From IMG/VR virus record IMGVR_UViG_3300031759_000013: a stretch of DNA of 20,000 nt; one strand, given 5' to 3'. A program made the translations under genes and the position numbers. The notes beneath the pieces are model-generated. The model did no database searches. It was not told where the DNA came from and saw nothing but the letters and a program-made list of their open reading frames with translations. Source of the DNA: an uncultured virus (IMG/VR IMGVR_UViG_3300031759_000013). Taxonomy: Duplodnaviria; Heunggongvirae; Uroviricota; Caudoviricetes. This document shows positions 6,568 to 18,013 of the stretch, piece by piece (position 1 is the stretch's first letter; every line of letters starts with the position of its first letter).

Positions 6568-6590
6568 AATATTCCTTTACTCTATACCTC

Positions 6591-6619
6591 ATTGTAACAT
6601 ATAATTATTTAAATGTCAA
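6591..6619 (-). promoter_or_regulatory. Sigma70-type promoter for the packaging/head operon
   Basis: Minus strand TTGACA (6619-6614), 17-nt spacer, TACAAT (6596-6591) with TGn extension; AAAGGA RBS and the terS ATG follow. Confidence 0.8.
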
Positions 6620-6652
6620 GCACTATTTTATACGACATGCCCTAAATAGTTC

Positions 6653-6680
6653 TTGACAAATAAAGAAATTAGTGTATAAT
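6653..6680 (+). promoter_or_regulatory. Consensus sigma70 promoter, rightward
   Basis: TTGACA (6653-6658), 16-nt spacer, TATAAT (6675-6680). Confidence 0.75.
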
Positions 6681-6692
6681 ACTATATAGACA

Positions 6693-6791
6693 ACAATGTA
6701 GTCTACTTTTTAGTAAGAATATAGTAAGTATTTAATATAGTAATAAAAACTATTAACTACATAGAGCAATAGAGCACAATGTAGTCTACAT
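6693..6791. repeat. 14-bp direct repeat containing a palindrome (operator-like)
   Basis: ACAATGTAGTCTAC at 6693-6706 and 6776-6789; second copy forms ATGTAG-T-CTACAT (6779-6791). Confidence 0.65.
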
Positions 6792-6969
6792 AGGGCTAAA
6801 GAGCACTTATTAGTTCTATGTCTTAACTTTCTTTCTTTATGTCTACTCCGTCCTGGAGAGCACGACCTAGTTTCTACCTTGGTCCGACCCTACCCCTTGT
6901 TTTAAAAGTTATGCCAGCGTTAAATGTAGCGTTATATATATTATCTAATAATTCTTTTTTACCCCCACC

Positions 6970-7014
6970 CTACCTAGATTCTACCTAGGGAACTACCCAG
7001 CTCTACCCAGCTAC
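6970..7014. repeat. Periodic CTACCYAG repeats
   Basis: CTACCTAG at 6970 and 6981, CTACCCAG at 6993 and 7003, CTAC at 7011. Confidence 0.7.
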
Positions 7015-7342
7015 GTTGGAGGTCTGCTCAGGTCTTTACGTTGTAATGTCATGTTCTGTGCAGCTTTGTGCAGGGCTAAGTAGTGCCTGTTTATTAGGCA
7101 GTTTATTACCCATCATTACTAATCAAGGACTTGCACCTGCTTAGTGCGTCTTAGTCTTATACCATTACTGAGTAGACAATCCTATTCAATATGCTATTCA
7201 GTTATATAGACTAAGTAGCTCTCTTATGCCCTTCTCTGTCTGTTATTGTCTATCCCTTTAGTATGTCTATCCGTTCTATCGCTATCTGCTTTACTGTCTC
7301 GATGTTGTCCCCTATAAATTGGCATTGTTGTTTGTTTGCAAC

Positions 7343-7387
7343 TAGGTATAAACACCTATAGATTTTACTTACAATTAGTACTAAATT
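7343..7387 (+). promoter_or_regulatory. Candidate early promoter 1: palindrome + 23 nt + TAAATT
   Basis: TAGGT-ATAAAC-ACCTA (7343-7358), TAAATT at 7382-7387; same geometry as 7517-7561. Confidence 0.55.
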
Positions 7388-7420
7388 GTAGTTACCCACA
7401 CAAACAAAGGAATAAACATC

Positions 7421-10798: not shown

Positions 10799-10867
10799 GT
10801 ATCAAATGACTAAGAAAACAGCTAAAAAGCACCTTAAATCGCCTATAAAAGGCAACGGAGACACCAG

Positions 10868-11083
10868 ATGAGATGCTATTGCTGCAATGTGTTATTAACT
10901 CCATACGAAAGTACGATTAAGTCAGTTAATACTAATGATTATCTAGATATGTGTTTAAAATGTTTAAAAACAGTAAAAACAGATATTAATTATAAAGATA
11001 GAATTGATTTACTAAGTAGTAATGATGTAGATGATTTAGATTTATATCTAGATAATGATTATGATAATCTAGATGAATACTAA
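10868..11083 (+). CDS. Small Cys-rich (probable zinc-binding) protein with an acidic tail
   Basis: CYCC...CLKC and Asp-rich C-terminus; GGAG RBS. Confidence 0.7.
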   Translation: MRCYCCNVLLTPYESTIKSVNTNDYLDMCLKCLKTVKTDINYKDRIDLLSSNDVDDLDLYLDNDYDNLDEY

Positions 11084-11166
11084 GTAGTATGTAGTACTAA
11101 ATAGTAAATAATATTAATATTGTTTTTAAAAACTAAATTAACTAAGTAGTATGTAGTACTAAATAG
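11079..11166. repeat. Exact 26-bp direct repeat around a 36-bp AT-rich spacer (candidate replication origin or operator)
   Basis: ACTAAGTAGTATGTAGTACTAAATAG at 11079-11104 and 11141-11166. Confidence 0.8.
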
Positions 11167-11174
11167 AGAAAATT

Positions 11175-11744
11175 ATGTCTAAAATTAAAATACTTGTAGC
11201 GTGTGAATATAGTGGTAGAGTTAGAGATGCTTTTATTAAAAGAGGCTTTGATGCTATTTCATGCGACTTACTTCCTACTGATGTCCCTGGGCCTCATTAT
11301 CAAGGAGATGTATTTGATATTATTGATAATGGTTTTTCTTTGATGGTTGCTCACCCACCTTGCACGCACTTAGCAGTTTCTGGTTCAAGATGGTTTAAAG
11401 ACAAGGTGGTAGAACAGGCAGAGGCTTTAGATTTTGTTCGTAAACTACTTGATGCAAATATTAAACATATTGCTTTAGAAAATCCTATTAGCGTGATTTC
11501 TAGTAAAATTAGAAAACCTGACCAGATAATACAGCCTTGGCAGTTCGGGCATGGAGAAACTAAAGCAACTTGTCTATGGCTTAAAAACTTACCTAAACTT
11601 GTTCCTACTAATATTGTTGAAGGCAGAGAAGCTAAAGTGCACAAAATGCCTCCTAGCCCTGATAGATGGAAACTACGCAGCACTACTTACCAAGGAATCG
11701 CTGATGCGATAGCACAACAATGGGGAGATTATTTAAGTGTCTAA
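11175..11744 (+). CDS. Compact DNA (cytosine-5)-methyltransferase-like protein
   Basis: Rossmann-like start ILVACEYSG, SCDL, GDV, catalytic-type HPPC and ENP motifs. Confidence 0.7.
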   Translation: MSKIKILVACEYSGRVRDAFIKRGFDAISCDLLPTDVPGPHYQGDVFDIIDNGFSLMVAHPPCTHLAVSGSRWFKDKVVEQAEALDFVRKLLDANIKHIALENPISVISSKIRKPDQIIQPWQFGHGETKATCLWLKNLPKLVPTNIVEGREAKVHKMPPSPDRWKLRSTTYQGIADAIAQQWGDYLSV

Positions 11745-13314
11745 TTTCCTTAAGCACATTCCATGTCTTAAATGCGGTAGCTCCGATGGGAATTCATTGT
11801 ATGATGACCATCACGAATATTGTCATGTGTGTGGTAATCACATTAAAGGCGATGGAACAGAAAGTTATGTTGCACCTACAAGGAAGAAGAATATGTTAGA
11901 AGTTAAAGGCAGTATTATGTCGATTAGCGACAGAGGCATCACACGAGATACTTGCCAATATTACGGAGTAACTCAAGATGGGACTTCACAGTTCTATCCC
12001 TACGCAGATGCAGAAGGTATTATTGTAGCTACCAAGAATCGTAATGTTGAGCATAAGACTTTTGGTATCTCTGGAGAGTGGAAACATACGACTTTATTCG
12101 GTCAGCAGTTATTTCCTAAAGGCGGTAAGACTGTCACTATCCATGAAGGTGAGCTAGATGCCCTAGCAGGGTTCCAGATGAGTGGTAGCAAGTACGCTAA
12201 TGTCTCAGTACGTAACGGAGCACAAGCAGCTCTAAAGGACGTTAAAGCCTCTTATGAGTGGTTATCTTCCTTTGAGAATATCTATATCTGCTTTGATGCT
12301 GATGAGCCTGGACAGAAGGCAGCGAATGAAGTAGCAGAGATTCTAGGTAGCAAGTGTAAGATTGTGAAGCACGTAGCAGGTTTTAAAGATGCTTGTGATT
12401 ATCTTGCAGTAGGTAAAGGAGCTGATTATGTTAAGCAATGGTGGGCAGCAGAGCAATGGACACCGGATGGAATTATCGCAGGTTCTTCGTTATGGGAAGA
12501 AGTTAATAGACCTGTGGAGAAATCGTCAGCCCTCTATCCTTGGGCAGGAGTCAACGAGCTTACCTATGGAATCCGTCCAGCAGAGCTTATCACAGTCTGT
12601 GCAGGTTCAGGACTAGGTAAGTCTCAATTCTTGCGTGAGATTCTCTGGCACTTGATACAGACTACAGACTCTAACATTGGCTTAATGTTTATGGAAGAAT
12701 CTGTACGTAAGACAGCGAGAAGTATTATGTCTTTACACTTGAACAAACCTTTACATTTACCTGACACTTTAGTAAGTAATGAAGAACTCAAGCAGTCCTT
12801 TGATGCTACGATGGGTACAGATAGATTGTATTTATGGGATAACTTTGGTTCTACGGATATTGACAACGTGATGAATCGTATTCGATACTTCGCTAAAGCA
12901 GCAGATTGCAAGTATATCTTTTTAGACCATATTTCAATGATTATTTCTGCACAATCTAACGGTGATGAGCGCAAGGCTATTGATGAGTTAATGACGAAGT
13001 TGCGTATGTTAGTTCAAGAAACTGGAGTGTGTCTTATTGCTGTGTCACATCTGAAGAGGCCAGATAGTAAGGGACATGAGGAAGGGGCTGCGACATCATT
13101 GTCTCAGTTGCGTGGTTCTGCTTCTATCGCCCAACTTAGTGACATTGTTATTGGATTGGTTCGTAATGCTCAAGCTGAAGACCCTATTGAACGCAACACT
13201 ACCAGGGTTTCCATTTTAAAAAATAGATTTTCAGGATTAACTTCACCCCATTGTGCTTCGTTGTTATACAATAAAGACTCTGGACGAATGCTTGAAATGG
13301 AGGATGTATTATGA
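11737..13314 (+). CDS. T7 gp4-type primase-helicase
   Basis: Zn ribbon CLKC..CHVC, TOPRIM EGELDA and DAD, Walker A AGSGLGKS, DHIS, SHLKR, LRGSASIAQLSD, KNR; GTG start. Confidence 0.93.
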   Translation: MSNFLKHIPCLKCGSSDGNSLYDDHHEYCHVCGNHIKGDGTESYVAPTRKKNMLEVKGSIMSISDRGITRDTCQYYGVTQDGTSQFYPYADAEGIIVATKNRNVEHKTFGISGEWKHTTLFGQQLFPKGGKTVTIHEGELDALAGFQMSGSKYANVSVRNGAQAALKDVKASYEWLSSFENIYICFDADEPGQKAANEVAEILGSKCKIVKHVAGFKDACDYLAVGKGADYVKQWWAAEQWTPDGIIAGSSLWEEVNRPVEKSSALYPWAGVNELTYGIRPAELITVCAGSGLGKSQFLREILWHLIQTTDSNIGLMFMEESVRKTARSIMSLHLNKPLHLPDTLVSNEELKQSFDATMGTDRLYLWDNFGSTDIDNVMNRIRYFAKAADCKYIFLDHISMIISAQSNGDERKAIDELMTKLRMLVQETGVCLIAVSHLKRPDSKGHEEGAATSLSQLRGSASIAQLSDIVIGLVRNAQAEDPIERNTTRVSILKNRFSGLTSPHCASLLYNKDSGRMLEMEDVL

Positions 13315-13523
13315 GTGAGAAATTAGTATTAGAAGTTTTTGAGCGTGGTAAAGCGTTTGGGTATGCTGAAGGACTTAAAACCAATAAAGTAAAAACACTA
13401 ACAGATGCAGAAATTGCACAAGTATTTCAAGATGACAATTTATGGCGTTATAGTGATTTGGTGTTAGAAAGTGATGGAATTCAGTTTGCTAGAGCAATAC
13501 TAAGAAAGGCACAAGAGAAATGA
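13311..13523 (+). CDS. Cassette protein 1 (70 aa), ends FARAILRKAQEK
   Basis: GGAGG RBS; ATGA overlap with helicase gene; ends in the junction repeat. Confidence 0.75.
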   Translation: MSEKLVLEVFERGKAFGYAEGLKTNKVKTLTDAEIAQVFQDDNLWRYSDLVLESDGIQFARAILRKAQEK

Positions 13524-13762
13524 ACTATCAATCTCCATTTACCCGTTGGTGGGATGCAAACATAACTCAGATGGCGGTCAGTCCTGAGATTAGAAAGCTG
13601 ATTGCTATGGCATTTGAGGGCGGTCAATTATCCACAAAACCTCGTGAGTTAAGTGATGATGAGATATGTGATATTTGGCTTGATGTATTTTCAAATAATT
13701 CCACCGCAGAAAGACAGTTAGTTTTTGCTAGAGCAATACTAAAGAAAGCACAAGAGAAATGA
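13520..13762 (+). CDS. Cassette protein 2 (80 aa), ends FARAILKKAQEK
   Basis: Starts and ends inside junction repeats. Confidence 0.75.
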   Translation: MNYQSPFTRWWDANITQMAVSPEIRKLIAMAFEGGQLSTKPRELSDDEICDIWLDVFSNNSTAERQLVFARAILKKAQEK

Positions 13763-13847
13763 TTAGCAAAGCAAGTGTAGTGCTTGGAGTGAGACAACTC
13801 GCTCGATTGCTAACGGTATTGGTTGGCTACCGTCTGCACAGTCAACC
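13763..13847 (+). ncRNA. Candidate structured non-coding RNA cassette (three-way junction, hairpin, two pseudoknots)
   Basis: Six complementary segment pairs cover almost all bases; the three non-Watson-Crick pairs are all G-U on the plus strand; bounded by junction repeats. Confidence 0.5.
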
Positions 13848-13873
13848 CCTAATTTAAGAAAGGCACAAGAGAA

Positions 13874-14251
13874 ATGACTACTAAAATGCTATATCGTGAT
13901 TTAGAAATCCTTGACTTACTTAAACTACGTTTTATCCGAGACCCTGATAATAAAGATGTTTATGTAGGAAGAACAACGGACGAAGAGCTAGATAAGTACG
14001 AAGAAATACTAAGAAATACTAAGAAAGGCACAAGAGAAATGAACGCAAATGAACTAGCTCAACAATTAAGTCAGATGGATACGCTTCAAGATGGTATGTC
14101 TAAATTTGAATACTCAATAATTCAAAAATCTGAAGCCATGCTACGCCAGCAACAAGCTGAAATAGAGGCGTTGAAAGCAAAGCATGACGCAATATCATGT
14201 TCAAGCTGTGCATGTGGCTTTATTAAAAGAGGAAAGGCTAATGAAAAATGA
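13874..14251 (+). CDS. Fused cassette protein (two units joined at 14039, MNANE module)
   Basis: Contains an internal junction repeat read in a shifted frame because of the AAGAAATACT tandem duplication at 14001-14020. Confidence 0.7.
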   Translation: MTTKMLYRDLEILDLLKLRFIRDPDNKDVYVGRTTDEELDKYEEILRNTKKGTREMNANELAQQLSQMDTLQDGMSKFEYSIIQKSEAMLRQQQAEIEALKAKHDAISCSSCACGFIKRGKANEK

Positions 14252-14454
14252 AATATTGGAAACCTTTAACACCTTTGCGTTATGTAATGCGTGGTGAAAT
14301 GCCGATTCTTCAGCAAGCATGGGGATTATATGTGCCAATTCCTGATGCACCTTACGAATCGCAAATAGATTATATGTGGCGTGATATTCCAACTTTGCCT
14401 GAAAACAAAGGCAATGGTTTGGATTGGATTATTGAAGAACCATTATCAGTTTAA
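14248..14454 (+). CDS. Cassette protein (68 aa, ILQQAW...WRDIP)
   Basis: Start lies in a variant junction; the stop is the TAA of the next junction. Confidence 0.7.
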   Translation: MKYWKPLTPLRYVMRGEMPILQQAWGLYVPIPDAPYESQIDYMWRDIPTLPENKGNGLDWIIEEPLSV

Positions 14455-14470
14455 GAAAGGCACAAGAGAA

Positions 14471-14746
14471 ATGAACGCAAATGAATTGATTGATGAACTG
14501 TGGGTTTGTTTAGAATCTCCAATTATTAGTGATTCAGATACTAGAGATTTAGTTATGAATGCAGCCACTATGCTACGCCAGCAACAAGCTGAAATAGAAA
14601 CATTACAAACAAGAATCGTGGATAGGGAAAATGAATATTCACAAATAGCCATTCAAAATGAAACTAATAAAGCGTTGTTAGATGATGCTAATGCTGAAAT
14701 AGAGGCGTTAAAAGAACAATTGAGGTTTAGCTATGACGGACAATGA
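14471..14746 (+). CDS. Cassette protein (91 aa, MNANE...MLRQQQAEIE coiled coil)
   Basis: ATG of the junction at 14471; shares modules with the 14039 and 15315 units. Confidence 0.7.
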   Translation: MNANELIDELWVCLESPIISDSDTRDLVMNAATMLRQQQAEIETLQTRIVDRENEYSQIAIQNETNKALLDDANAEIEALKEQLRFSYDGQ

Positions 14747-14945
14747 ACCAGTAGCGTGGATGGATAAAGATGGAAATATTTTTTATACAGATGGAATGGC
14801 TCATACACTTCCACTCTATACCCATCCAGCAAAGACGCTAAACAAAGAAGAAATACTGAAATTAGCTGAAGAATTTGATATATGGCTTGGCTATGATGAG
14901 ATTAAATTTATTCAGTTTGTGTTAAGAAAGGCTAATGAGAAATGA
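14733..14945 (+). CDS. Cassette protein (70 aa, EPVAW...PLYTHP...LRKANEK)
   Basis: GAGG RBS; ends in a variant junction. Confidence 0.75.
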   Translation: MTDNEPVAWMDKDGNIFYTDGMAHTLPLYTHPAKTLNKEEILKLAEEFDIWLGYDEIKFIQFVLRKANEK

Positions 14946-15034
14946 ACACAAAAGACTTCGTAATATCTTGGGTGATGATTTATATAGCTGGCGGTATTGC
15001 TCTTTATTTAATACTTTCAGCAAGCCATTGTTAA
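14942..15034 (+). CDS. Cassette membrane peptide (30 aa, MNTKDFVISWVMIYIAGGIALYLILSASHC)
   Basis: Read manually; start and stop both supplied by junction repeats; one hydrophobic helix. Confidence 0.55.
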   Translation: MNTKDFVISWVMIYIAGGIALYLILSASHC

Positions 15035-15050
15035 GAAAGGCACAAGATAA

Positions 15051-15536
15051 ATGAGCTACCACGGAAAACTGCAAACATTAAAAAACGGTACAGCAGATTC
15101 GGAAATTCAACTATGGGCTTATCAGCAAATAGAAACAATAGAATATTTGTACAAAACGCACGACAAAGATAAAGCACAGTTAGTTGCAGCAGAACAGCTT
15201 TATTTAGATTCCTTTGAGCGTGGAAAGCAAATAGGTTATGCAGAAGGAATGATGAACAGGTCAATTAGTGTTCAAAATAATGAGCAGTTCATGTTCCGTG
15301 AACAAGGTAAAGAAATGAACGCAAATGAAATAGACCCTAAATATGTTGCTGATTTAGAAAAAATAATTGTCAAACAACAAGCTGAAATAGAGGCGTTGAA
15401 AGCTGACAAATTATTACATGATGAAGCGTATTTAAGCCAGATGAAAGAAATAGAGGCGTTGAAAGACGAGGCTGCAGGGTGGGAGATGTCTTACGAAAAC
15501 TGCCATAGAACATGCAGTGGATATGGGATGAATTAA
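15051..15536 (+). CDS. Cassette protein (161 aa), apparent fusion with an internal MNANE unit at 15315
   Basis: Start in a junction; contains FERGK..GYAEG, MNANE and two EIEALK modules. Confidence 0.7.
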   Translation: MSYHGKLQTLKNGTADSEIQLWAYQQIETIEYLYKTHDKDKAQLVAAEQLYLDSFERGKQIGYAEGMMNRSISVQNNEQFMFREQGKEMNANEIDPKYVADLEKIIVKQQAEIEALKADKLLHDEAYLSQMKEIEALKDEAAGWEMSYENCHRTCSGYGMN

Positions 15537-15537
15537 A

Positions 15538-15909
15538 ATGATACCAGCTATGCGTAATGCGAATGCTTCTCATGTAGACTTTGGTTTCCTTCGTGGAATG
15601 ATTCCTGATAATCCTCACTTCATGCCTAGTAATATTGACATGATAGTTGAACGTAAAGGAAAGTTTATCTTCGGTGAATGGAAGCGTGAAGGTGAGAAGA
15701 TGACGATGGGTCAAAAGATTCTGTTATTATCTTTATCTAAAATTCATACGGTATTGATTATCACAGGTCATGTTGACGAAGAAGCATACGTTTCTAAAGT
15801 ACAAGTATTAAACTGTAACGGTAAACTAAACCTCATTGGTAACAGTAAAGAATCTTTAATAACATATTTACAAGACTGGTATGAAGCAGTCGAGAAAGGA
15901 AAACTATGA
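15538..15909 (+). CDS. Putative PD-(D/E)xK-fold nuclease-like protein
   Basis: ID.IVER.G.FIFGEWK....M..GQ resembles the VRR-NUC/restriction-endonuclease-like motif. Confidence 0.55.
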   Translation: MIPAMRNANASHVDFGFLRGMIPDNPHFMPSNIDMIVERKGKFIFGEWKREGEKMTMGQKILLLSLSKIHTVLIITGHVDEEAYVSKVQVLNCNGKLNLIGNSKESLITYLQDWYEAVEKGKL

Positions 15910-16037
15910 GAAGCACTGGCGGCAAAGGCGATAGGCAAAGACCATTAACAATACCGAAAGAACAATTTGAGAAAAACTGGGATGAGATATTTAAGAAAAA
16001 AGAAAAGCCTGTTCCTCCTCCTGTTCCTACTAAGTAA
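15906..16037 (+). CDS. Small basic protein (43 aa, MRSTGGKGDRQRP...FEKNWDEIF)
   Basis: Read manually; AAGGA RBS; ATGA overlap. Confidence 0.65.
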   Translation: MRSTGGKGDRQRPLTIPKEQFEKNWDEIFKKKEKPVPPPVPTK

Positions 16038-16224
16038 TGTAGTATGGATAGTTATTATGCACAAAGATGCAATGTATAATAGCTATGTAGGTGATGACAG
16101 ATGCCATGATACAATGAATTATCAAGCGTTCTATTCTGTTAAAAATGAAATAGAATATTGTTTTTATAGAAAGACTGCTTATCCATATAGGCTAAGTGGT
16201 GGGATAATAGGAGTTAAACCATGA
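15982..16224 (+). CDS. Putative membrane-anchored small protein
   Basis: Basic N-terminus plus hydrophobic stretch; start uncertain (15967/15982/16057); ATGA overlap with the next gene. Confidence 0.5.
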   Translation: MRYLRKKKSLFLLLFLLSNVVWIVIMHKDAMYNSYVGDDRCHDTMNYQAFYSVKNEIEYCFYRKTAYPYRLSGGIIGVKP

Positions 16225-16361
16225 AGATTATTATTGCAACATTGTTGTTTTGTTTGGTGACAGTAGCCCAGGCACAGAGCACTACAACGATTGTTATGCC
16301 TGATGGTACAATGATGGTGTGTACTAATTTTGGTACAGTTGTTTCTTGTGAAAAGATGTAA
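16221..16361 (+). CDS. Small secreted protein (46 aa) with signal peptide
   Basis: MKIIIATLLFCLVTVAQA-QSTTTIVMPDGTMMVCTNFGTVVSCEKM; AxA cleavage site; AGGAG RBS; TAATG overlap with the polymerase gene. Confidence 0.65.
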   Translation: MKIIIATLLFCLVTVAQAQSTTTIVMPDGTMMVCTNFGTVVSCEKM

Positions 16362-18013
16362 TGCTTAAGACTTTAGTCCTCGATATTGAAACCAACCTAG
16401 CACATGACATAGTCTGGTGCGTGGTTACTTTACATCGTGAAACTGGAGAGATTAAAGTATGGAAAGAACCTACAGGGTTGAAGGAATATTTAGAAAATGC
16501 TATTACTATCGTGGGACACAATATTTTTGCTTTTGATGCTTATCTCCTTAATCGTTTATGGAATACGAAAATAAGAAAATCTCAACTTCAAGATACTTTA
16601 CTTTTATCTCGTTTATCTGATTCAAGCAGAGAAGGAGGACACAGTTTAGACTCGTGGGGTAAAACTCTTGGTTATCATAAATTAGATTTTAATGCTTATG
16701 ACGACGGGCTTACAGATACTATGCTTGAGTATTGTCAAAGAGACGTAGAGCTTACATCTAAAGTATATGATATGTTATGGAAAGAATTAGATGCTAACAA
16801 GATTAGCGACGAAGCTATTAAACTAGAGTATGAAGTACAAGTAATTCTATCGGAGATGGAACGTAATGGATTCAAGCTTGATGAACCGTATGCACAGACG
16901 TTGCTCTGTGAAATTAAAACTGAGATGGCTCAGATTGAAGAAGCTTTACAAGCCATATTCCCTCCGATTGTTACGGAGCGTGTATCGGAGAAGACTGGTA
17001 AAAGACTTAAAGATGATGTTGAAGCATTTAATATTGGCTCACGTCAACAGATTGCTAAGCGTCTTATGTCTAAAGGTTGGAAGCCTACCAAGACTACAGA
17101 GAAGGGGCAGATTATTGTCGATGAGACGGTACTTGCTGATGTACAGCTTGAGGAAGCTAAACCTATTGCAAGATATTTGACATTACAAAAGAGAGCATCA
17201 CAATTAGATTCATGGTTAGAAAAACTAGGAAAGGACGGGAGAGTTCATGGTAAAGTTATTGGTTTTGGTGCTGTTACTGGCAGAGCTACCCATAGTAGCC
17301 CTAATATGGCTCAGGTGCCAGCAGTGCGAGCTACTTTGGGTACAGAGTTCCGTTCGTGTTGGACGGTTGATAAGGGGAATGTCCTTGTGGGTGTTGACTT
17401 GTCTGGTATTGAACTGCGTTGTTTTGCTCATTACCTTAATGACTTGGACTACATAAATGAGACAGTCAACGGTGATGTCCACACGAGAAATCAGCAAGCT
17501 TTCGGGGTTGAGACGAGAGACCTTGCGAAGACTGTCCTTTATGCGACTTTGTACGGAGCATCCCCAACCAAGATTGGTACAGTTATTGGTGGCACTGCGA
17601 AGCAAGGAGCCAACATTATCAATAGCTTCAGTAAAGCAATACCAGCGTATGCGAGGCTTAAATCCAAAGTTGAACGCCTTGCTGAAAAGGGAACACTACC
17701 TGGGCTTCATGGTTATCAACTTAAGGTCAGGTCGGCTCATTCGTCGCTCAACACGTTACTACAAAGTGCAGGGGCTATCATCGCTAAGCAGTGGCTTGTT
17801 CAAATCAAAAAGAACTTGACAGCAGCAAAGATACCTTATAAGCTAGTAACCTGGTGTCACGACGAGGTTCAAATAGAAACACCTGAACAGTACGGAGAAC
17901 AAGTAGGTAAATTAGTAGTACAAGCAGCAAGAGAATCAGGAGAGATTTTAAAGTTTAGATGTCCCGTAGGTGCAGAATACAAAGTAGGACATACATGGGC
18001 TGATTGTCATTAA
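16361..18013 (+). CDS. Family A DNA polymerase, T7 gp5-like
   Basis: Exo motifs DIET, GHN..FD, YC..DV; TGR; motif A DLSGIELR; motif B RDLAKTVLYATLYG; motif C HDE. Confidence 0.95.
   Translation: MLKTLVLDIETNLAHDIVWCVVTLHRETGEIKVWKEPTGLKEYLENAITIVGHNIFAFDAYLLNRLWNTKIRKSQLQDTLLLSRLSDSSREGGHSLDSWGKTLGYHKLDFNAYDDGLTDTMLEYCQRDVELTSKVYDMLWKELDANKISDEAIKLEYEVQVILSEMERNGFKLDEPYAQTLLCEIKTEMAQIEEALQAIFPPIVTERVSEKTGKRLKDDVEAFNIGSRQQIAKRLMSKGWKPTKTTEKGQIIVDETVLADVQLEEAKPIARYLTLQKRASQLDSWLEKLGKDGRVHGKVIGFGAVTGRATHSSPNMAQVPAVRATLGTEFRSCWTVDKGNVLVGVDLSGIELRCFAHYLNDLDYINETVNGDVHTRNQQAFGVETRDLAKTVLYATLYGASPTKIGTVIGGTAKQGANIINSFSKAIPAYARLKSKVERLAEKGTLPGLHGYQLKVRSAHSSLNTLLQSAGAIIAKQWLVQIKKNLTAAKIPYKLVTWCHDEVQIETPEQYGEQVGKLVVQAARESGEILKFRCPVGAEYKVGHTWADCH

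What the first reader, a model, noticed from the sequence alone, without database searches (positions are those of the whole stretch)
13759..13857. One cassette looks like a compact double-pseudoknot RNA rather than a protein gene
Seen pairings: P1 TTAGCAA 13763-69 / TTGCTAA 13807-13; P2 AGCA 13770-73 / TGCT 13781-84; P3 GAGTGAG 13787-93 / CTCGCTC 13798-804; P4 CGGTA 13814-18 / TACCG 13828-32. The P2 loop GTGTAG 13775-80 pairs with CTGCAC 13834-39, and the P4 loop GGTTGGC 13821-27 pairs with GTCAACC 13841-47. Nearly every base is used, all three imperfect pairs are G-U on the sense strand, and the unit is more GC-rich than its neighbours. The 32-aa ORF spanning it shares none of the array's peptide modules. 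Inference: a riboswitch-, ribozyme- or decoy-like RNA carried as cargo by the junction system. I could not match it to hammerhead, twister, pistol or HDV cores.
Basis: partly seen in the sequence, partly recalled or inferred. Interest (0 to 1): 0.8.

Follow-up and report, generated by a model that had tools for sequence, protein, structure and literature searches.

The report
Mobile double-knot RNA in phage operons
This short stretch of a bacteriophage genome is not a protein gene but a tightly knotted RNA of a kind not found in the RNA family library; many phages keep or swap it between genes, and it most likely shields the downstream messenger RNA from decay, though it could be a new self-cutting RNA.

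Summary
All six helices are present; 0 of 5000 shuffles fold as well. Ten close variants keep all 360 counted pairs while the overlapping ORF switches frame. The cassette moves between LRKAQEK junctions (15 neighbour pairs) in unrelated phage backbones. Through bridging copies (L272, L377) it links to a diverged lineage that sits behind rusA in 30-34 of 34 loci and covaries in both pseudoknots (16 of 24 pairs in 12 sequences). That link is indirect: a model of the diverged lineage alone misses the window. The fold is two interleaved H-type pseudoknots with an optional P3, always on the sense strand, ending 17-28 nt before a start codon. Rfam had no match; HDV, pistol and hammerhead criteria fail. 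Function is untested. Best guess (0.38): a barrier to RNase E scanning that stabilises downstream cistrons, since pseudoknots block scanning by size, not sequence. Rivals: new self-cleaving ribozyme (0.2), SSB-type translational operator (0.14), trans-acting decoy (0.12), antiterminator (0.08). The scan had not noted this RNA before; one note describes a different mobile phage RNA.

The parts
13740..13762 (+). 5' junction repeat (LRKAQEK-type; stop of upstream gene overlapping ATG)
   Evidence: repeat family D1; junction present at both ends of all 67 full matches counted
13763..13813 (+). 5' domain: P1 13763-69/13807-13 closing a three-way junction with P2 (13770-73/13781-84) and P3 (13787-93/13798-804)
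   Evidence: P3 absent in 3 of 23 diverged members; P1 has no both-side change among the 10 close variants
13775..13839 (+). Pseudoknot 1: P2 loop 13775-80 with 13834-39; one A (13774) in loop 1
   Evidence: one both-side change in close variants; 5 of 7 pairs change on both sides in 12 diverged members
13814..13847 (+). 3' domain: P4 13814-18/13828-32 and pseudoknot 2 13821-27/13841-47
   Evidence: one-side changes only in close variants; wholly different sequences keep the pairs in diverged members
13848..13873 (+). 26-nt spacer from PK2 to the next ATG, holding the 3' junction and its purine-rich ribosome site
   Evidence: sequence; 17-28 nt in 23 diverged members
13855..13877 (+). 3' junction repeat
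13759..13857 (+). 32-codon ORF overlapping the RNA; peptide not conserved
   Evidence: two frames used among 10 variants; no Pfam or PHROG hit
11737..13314 (+). Primase/helicase gene upstream of the accessory array (context)
   Evidence: phrog_239, E 1.6e-178
16361..18013 (+). DNA polymerase gene downstream of the array (context)
   Evidence: phrog_17, E 1.7e-134

Best explanation
A cis-acting structural barrier in polycistronic phage mRNA. SHOWN by comparison: a 70-100-nt RNA of two interleaved H-type pseudoknots on the sense strand, between cistrons, ending 17-28 nt before a start codon, fixed behind the resolvase gene in one phage lineage and mobile as a junction cassette in others. INFERRED: it has no promoter of its own, folds in read-through mRNA, and forms a long coaxial obstacle. 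After an upstream cut, RNase E scanning from the 5' monophosphate (or another 5'-to-3' translocating enzyme) stalls at it, so the downstream genes outlive the upstream recombination or replication genes. It would work in front of any gene, which explains why it spreads as cargo.
For: PMC9943677 (passages): H-type pseudoknots, not plain stem-loops, protect distal sites from RNase E scanning in E. coli, and protection depends on obstacle size, not composition, levelling off above about 50 A. This predicts what is seen: helices kept while their sequences swap, both knots close to CPK1 geometry (loop 1 of 1-3 nt; stem 2 of 6-7 bp in PK1 and 5-7 bp in PK2), position just 5' of a ribosome site in all 33 parsed members, and indifference to gene identity (15 neighbour pairs; glycosyltransferase-like, HNH and unknown genes). 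No promoter- or terminator-like site lies in or next to the cassette. Two copies can share one operon (L156). The diverged type also has a 5' CC that could pair with GG in the junction, like the two-base 5' pairing of xrRNAs.
Against: The host is unknown, so RNase E is assumed (nearest cultured primase relatives about 50% identical; none of 8 rusA loci from bacterial genomes carries the RNA). A UUAGG/AUAGG motif is kept in 23 of 23 diverged members, more than a passive block needs (19 rows were found by anchoring on it). The RusA tail or the cassette ORF runs through part or all of the RNA, so ribosomes would unfold it at times. The 17-28-nt spacing could simply reflect compact genomes.
Confidence: 0.38

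Rival explanations
1. A new class of small self-cleaving ribozyme that cuts phage polycistronic mRNA and leaves a 5'-OH downstream product.
For: Size, two pseudoknots, an optional stem and a place between phage genes match known classes (PMC4604425, PMC6765202, passages). The order of PK1, P4 and PK2 strands equals that of HDV P1, P3 and P1.1 (inference). Conserved residues cluster where PK1 meets PK2: A before PK1, a purine-pyrimidine first pair in 31 of 33 (G-U in 7), a C-G pair at the end of PK2 in 30 of 33.
Against: Few unpaired bases are shared by both lineages (pistol has 10 highly conserved); the UUAGG motif is replaced in the window type. The A before PK1 was required by my parser, though the unconstrained descriptor also found it in the members it hit. 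A cut near that A would remove the rusA stop codon in members whose stop lies further 3'.
Confidence: 0.2
2. A translational operator like the T4 gene 32 pseudoknot: SSB or a host protein nucleates on the knot and covers the A/U-rich spacer and ribosome site of the next gene; a ligand-driven switch is a minor form of this idea.
For: T4 gp32 binds a pseudoknot followed by an unstructured A+U-rich tract (PMC3014915, passages). An ssb gene lies upstream in the rusA-type operon. The GUUAG strand can pair with the spacer next to the ribosome site better than letter-shuffled spacers (0 of 300).
Against: It lies 3' of ssb, not 5', and before variable genes. The spacer pairing does not beat partner permutation (95 of 300) and 5' CC pairing to the SD does not either (85 of 300). 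The window type moves among phages with different replication genes.
Confidence: 0.14
3. A small RNA trimmed out of the transcript that acts in trans as a decoy for a host defence protein, like a pseudo-antitoxin (recalled example, not tested).
For: Sporadic cargo in accessory arrays: 3 of 51 spanning primase loci, all one phage. Kept intact in 15 contexts. The 3' knot alone is 34 nt.
Against: Near-universal behind rusA in the other lineage, which suggests a core cis role. High sequence turnover with a fixed fold and fixed spacing to the next ATG. No Rfam match.
Confidence: 0.12
4. An RNA antiterminator or Rho block that acts on the elongating polymerase.
For: Promoter- and gene-independent, mid-operon, two copies in one operon.
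Against: In MW202753.1 it lies only about 2 kb from the end of its operon. No terminator-like site was found in window 10800-16500.
Confidence: 0.08
5. A tiny protein gene whose pairings are chance.
For: The ORF is open from ATG to a junction stop in 10 of 10 variants; the nested fold z-score is weak.
Against: Two frames are used; 24 of 24 pair types at 11 variable pairs are standard, where a random change keeps a pair with probability 0.18 (0.54 for transitions); diverged members have no such ORF in common.
Confidence: 0.01

Closest known systems
H-type (CPK1) pseudoknots as obstacles to RNase E scanning (PMC9943677; CPK1 as defined in PMC11262651)
   Same: Loop 1 of 1-3 nt, 5-7-bp stem 2, 0-2 nt between stems; position 5' of a ribosome site.
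   Different: Those tested were viral or telomerase knots placed in reporters. Here two knots are interleaved, the long loop of the second forms stem 2 of the first, and the unit is a natural, mobile phage element.
Flaviviral xrRNA (PMC5760640)
   Same: Three-way junction, hairpin loop pairing with a downstream segment, possible two-base pairing of the 5' end into the junction (rusA type).
   Different: The pseudoknot comes from L2 and a second knot follows; P3 is optional; no ring or base triple shown; bacterial virus; window type has a plain 7-bp P1.
HDV-like / theta ribozymes (PMC13635239, PMC10879173)
   Same: Double pseudoknot with the same strand order for three helices; purine-pyrimidine first pair; phage location.
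   Different: The P1.1 equivalent is 5-7 bp, not 2; no HDV L3 motif; no fixed P2 equivalent or J4/2 cytosine; the would-be cleavage site sits inside a hairpin loop.
T4/T2 gene 32 autoregulatory pseudoknot (PMC3014915)
   Same: Phage pseudoknot followed by an A/U-rich tract and a ribosome site; ssb gene in the operon.
   Different: Single knot 5' of the ssb gene in T4; here a double knot 3' of ssb and rusA, before variable genes, and mobile.
Pistol ribozyme (PMC4604425)
   Same: A hairpin loop pseudoknot whose linker pairs with a distant strand.
   Different: No P3 equivalent flanking a cleavage dinucleotide; no 10 conserved bases; no Rfam hit.

Membership tests
Any Rfam 15 family (incl. twister, hammerhead, pistol, hatchet, HDV, riboswitches, RAGATH motifs as far as the library holds them) | Covariance-model match | tested here: not met
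   No hit on the element at E<=5 in the window, at E<=10 in L272 or 12 diverged loci; none at gathering score in 18 loci.
HDV-like ribozyme | Two-base-pair P1.1 | tested here: not met
   Equivalent helix is 5-7 bp in 33 of 33; definition from PMC13635239.
HDV-like ribozyme | L3 with U20 and G25 (pattern UYYNCGY recalled) | tested here: not met
   0 of 33 match; first loop base is U in 12 of 33.
HDV-like ribozyme | P2 closing the 3' end and catalytic C first in J4/2 | tested here: inconclusive
   A GUUAG:CUAAC pairing is possible in part of the rusA type but shows no covariation; a C two bases after PK2 occurs in 29 of 33 by my parse.
HDV-like ribozyme | Self-cleavage | not testable with these tools
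   Needs an in vitro assay.
Pistol ribozyme | Three stems plus pseudoknot with a strict 2-nt cleavage junction between P3 and P2, 10 conserved bases | tested here: not met
   No such junction in the parse; AAA linker (recalled feature) in 0 of 33; definition.
Hammerhead ribozyme | CUGANGA and GAAA core (recalled) | tested here: not met
   0 of 33.
xrRNA | Three-way junction with loop-to-downstream pseudoknot and 5'-end pairing | tested here: inconclusive
   Analogous elements exist, but P3 is missing in 3 of 23 diverged members and a second knot is added.
xrRNA | Ring fold that halts 5'-3' exoribonucleases | not testable with these tools
   Needs a nuclease assay or a structure.
Gene 32 autoregulatory pseudoknot | Lies 5' of the ssb gene it controls | tested here: not met
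   Lies 3' of ssb and rusA; in the window about 4.2 kb 5' of the gp2.5-like ssb with other genes between.
Riboswitch (general) | Consistent class of downstream genes | tested here: not met
   13 different downstream N-termini for the window type; varied genes for the rusA type.
CPK1 H-type pseudoknot (structural motif) | Loop 1 of 1-2 nt, stem 2 of 6-7 bp, no loop between stems | tested here: met
   PK1 meets it in the window and most members; PK2 meets it in the window type, with 5-bp stem 2 in 10 of 23 diverged members. The parser allowed only nearby ranges.

The most novel reading that the evidence does not exclude
A previously undescribed class of self-cleaving ribozyme with an interleaved double pseudoknot related in strand order to HDV but with a different active site, used as a portable mRNA-processing cassette that phages exchange through junction repeats like a gene.
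Probability: 0.2. Interest if true: 0.92.

Novelty: categorically new. Interest (0 to 1): 0.74.

Why it matters
It is a well-supported structured RNA family with no Rfam match and a fold that fails the tests of the nearest ribozyme classes. It also shows a non-coding RNA moving as cargo in phage small-gene arrays, which are usually read as protein-only. If it blocks RNase E scanning, it is a natural, portable mRNA stabiliser and gives a direct test of how phages set different lifetimes for cistrons of one transcript. If it cleaves, it is a new ribozyme class. Both can be tested with a 70-100-nt transcript, and minimal natural members without P3 exist.

Tried and rejected
blastn of the element, of L272, L148 and L432 against 50,697 GenBank phages: no match covering the element. 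L013 looked like a distant member but has no P2/PK1 arrangement under the descriptor and only the seed motif matches; dropped. Of 17 hits, 9 were chance; of 51, 29 were chance. One search gave no new member (17 hits). One search gave 62 hits, none with a full P4; its gap was set too long to include the window type. A genome contigs pattern found 0. Model R1 (rusA type without L272/L377) misses the window, L377, L001/L156 and five virus records, one of which holds a known diverged copy, so its sensitivity is limited. Sequence-only HMMs of the rusA type, with or without the bridge, miss the window element. SD sequestration by the 5' CC run was not supported (85 of 300 permutations). Read-through or frameshift recoding was rejected because the upstream stop codon lies at different places. 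The neighbour count failed through a regex error and was redone. Literature searches for such an RNA listed nothing describing it; two searches returned 0 papers.

Full report
Setting. The window is part of a tailed phage with terminase, portal, primase/helicase, DNA polymerase, gp2.5-like SSB and exonuclease genes. Between primase and polymerase lies an array of small genes joined by a 23-nt repeat that encodes LRKAQEK and overlaps the next ATG. The element 13759-13857 fills one slot between two such junctions. No whole genome is held; the nearest virus record carries an identical copy.

Observation. All six helices are as described, with three G-U pairs and no mismatch; GC is 0.494 against 0.366 for the array. 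The nested fold is weak (z -1.48). A descriptor of P2, P4 and both pseudoknots scores 21.2; 0 of 5000 dinucleotide shuffles reach that and the minus strand scores 0. Among 115 junction cassettes of up to 260 nt, the top 9 scores all belong to this RNA (20.8-22.0) and the next is 19.8.

Close homologues. Pattern scans gave 8 true copies among 17 viral hits, 3 more in primase loci and 21 among 51 metagenome hits. Ten distinct variants keep 360 of 360 counted pairs; 4 pairs change on both sides, one of them in PK1. For 'pairs with a change on both sides' 52 of 500 shuffles reach the observed value, so that measure alone is not significant, and P1, P4 and PK2 vary on one side only. All 24 pair types at 11 variable pairs are standard. 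The ORF stays open in all ten, but 5 end at the junction TAA, 4 read another frame over the 3' two-thirds and 1 shifts at the end, so the peptide is not what is conserved. The cassette has 15 distinct neighbour pairs in different phage backbones. It is sporadic: 3 of 51 primase loci that reach the polymerase gene hold it, all one phage.

Distant homologues. One metagenome hit, L272, keeps the fold with compensatory changes in P2, P4 and PK1 and lies between rusA and a glycosyltransferase-like gene. I fetched 80 loci around relatives of that gene (best 80 of at least 600). A descriptor without sequence constraints, run on 3.0 million bases (both strands of all loci held), found the known copies, L377/378, L379/383, L429 and L456, the unplaced L148, and three apparent chance hits. 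Further members followed. In 12 diverged sequences aligned by MAFFT, 87.4% of cells pair and 16 of 24 pairs change on both sides (0 of 500 shuffles; 5 of 7 pairs in PK1, 2 of 5 in PK2, where misalignment lowers pairing to 72%). These sequences were picked because they fit the fold, which inflates the percentage paired. Of the 80 loci, 34 contain rusA; 30 score as this RNA right behind it and the other 4 look like members with a weak P2. GenBank MW202753.1 has an unannotated copy at 27679-27762. None of 11 more distant rusA loci, 8 of them from bacterial genome assemblies, has it.

How firm is the link? Model R1, built from the diverged lineage without the bridge, misses the window and L377 but hits L272 at E 0.022. 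Model R2, built from the ten close variants only, hits L272 (E 2.6e-5) and L377/378 (E 0.036) and nothing else at E below 1 among 84 sources. L272 was found with a window-derived pattern, so its score is partly by selection; L377/378 were fetched through the neighbouring gene. L272 and L377 share position, the 5' ACCUC and the UUAGG motif with the diverged lineage. I rate common descent of the two types at about 0.85 (judgement). One contig holds both types about 870 nt apart in one operon (L156).

Anatomy. In 33 distinct members that I chose and parsed (10 window type, 23 rusA type) the order is P2 5', A, PK1 5', P2 3', optional P3, P4 5', PK2 5', P4 3', PK1 3', short linker, PK2 3'. This is two interleaved H-type pseudoknots near CPK1 geometry (PMC11262651, passages). 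P3 is absent in 3. The rusA type has UUAGG/AUAGG before P4 (23 of 23) and a 5' CC (22 of 23); the window type has a 7-bp P1 instead. All lie on the sense strand and end 17-28 nt (26 in the window) before an ATG. The upstream stop codon falls before, inside or at the end of the 5' half, which excludes recoding. No promoter- or terminator-like site lies in the cassette.

Mechanism. No functional data exist, and expression could not be checked. The best fit is a barrier to RNase E scanning. PMC9943677 (passages) shows that pseudoknots, unlike simple stem-loops, protect downstream sites, and that size rather than composition matters. That accounts for a fold kept under free sequence turnover, a place just before a ribosome site, and indifference to the neighbouring gene. 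The host, and so the nuclease, is assumed. A natural riboswitch pseudoknot acting this way is known to me from memory only. A new ribozyme is the main rival: such RNAs are common near phage genes (PMC4604425, PMC6765202, passages) and conserved bases cluster at the PK1/PK2 interface, but few are shared by both types. An SSB operator (PMC3014915, passages), a trans-acting decoy and an antiterminator are less likely. Pairings that would make a translational switch showed no covariation.

Comparison with known families. Rfam gave no hit on the element or on 13 diverged loci. HDV criteria from PMC13635239 and PMC10879173 (passages) fail on P1.1 length and L3; pistol and hammerhead cores are absent. 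xrRNA (PMC5760640, passages) is an analogy, not a membership.

Novelty and its limits. Searches listed no description. PMC5737381 (passages) and PMC12191101 (passages) showed nothing on it; 10.64898/2026.09.22.753630 was seen as outline and abstract only. PMC10690425 mined IMG/VR intergenic regions for about 8,500 DNA-virus candidates (passages, section 15 and part 1 of one table). Motif searches in its readable supplements gave 0, but the one table I opened holds no sequences, and its coordinate table, diagrams and alignments could not be read, so part of this RNA may be among its unnamed candidates. The element overlaps predicted genes, which that pipeline set aside. Most subscription journals are outside the library. 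Earlier scan notes hold no look-alike; one note describes a different mobile phage RNA.

Verdict. A real, widespread and apparently undescribed phage RNA family; structure strongly supported, function inferred. Interest 0.74.

Noticed in passing
A paper search on such arrays returned 0. The mechanism of exchange was not studied.
   Followed up: partly
window 14001-14020: A 10-nt tandem duplication shifts the gene after the RNA out of the junction frame, fusing it to the next cassette (125 aa); in L299 the same gene is 52 aa and ends in LRKAQEK.
   Followed up: partly
L148 about 595-700: A single intergenic sequence fits the double-knot descriptor (score 21.1) with a long middle hairpin, followed by SD and ATG; possible third subtype; not hit by R1 or R2 and no relatives found.
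   Followed up: partly
L156 about 1690-1770 and 2537-2632: One operon carries both a rusA-type copy and a window-type cassette.
   Followed up: yes
window 10924-11176: AT-rich intergenic stretch with overlapping inverted repeats and two 36-nt direct repeats upstream of a methyltransferase gene; possible origin or promoter.
   Followed up: no
window 6570-7400: About 800 nt without long ORFs between the divergent packaging and early gene blocks; possible genome end or promoter region.
   Followed up: no
window 14138-15465: Internal peptide modules (LRQQQAEIEALK; MNANELA) recur among cassettes and suggest shuffling below the gene level.
   Followed up: no
L388 628-700: A tRNA gene about 350 nt upstream of the RNA in one rusA-type locus; not seen in the other 11 loci of that call.
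   Followed up: no
L411 753-1070; L413 447-764: A different resolvase family (phrog_244) replaces RusA while the RNA stays downstream, so the RNA follows the operon position rather than the RusA protein.
   Followed up: partly
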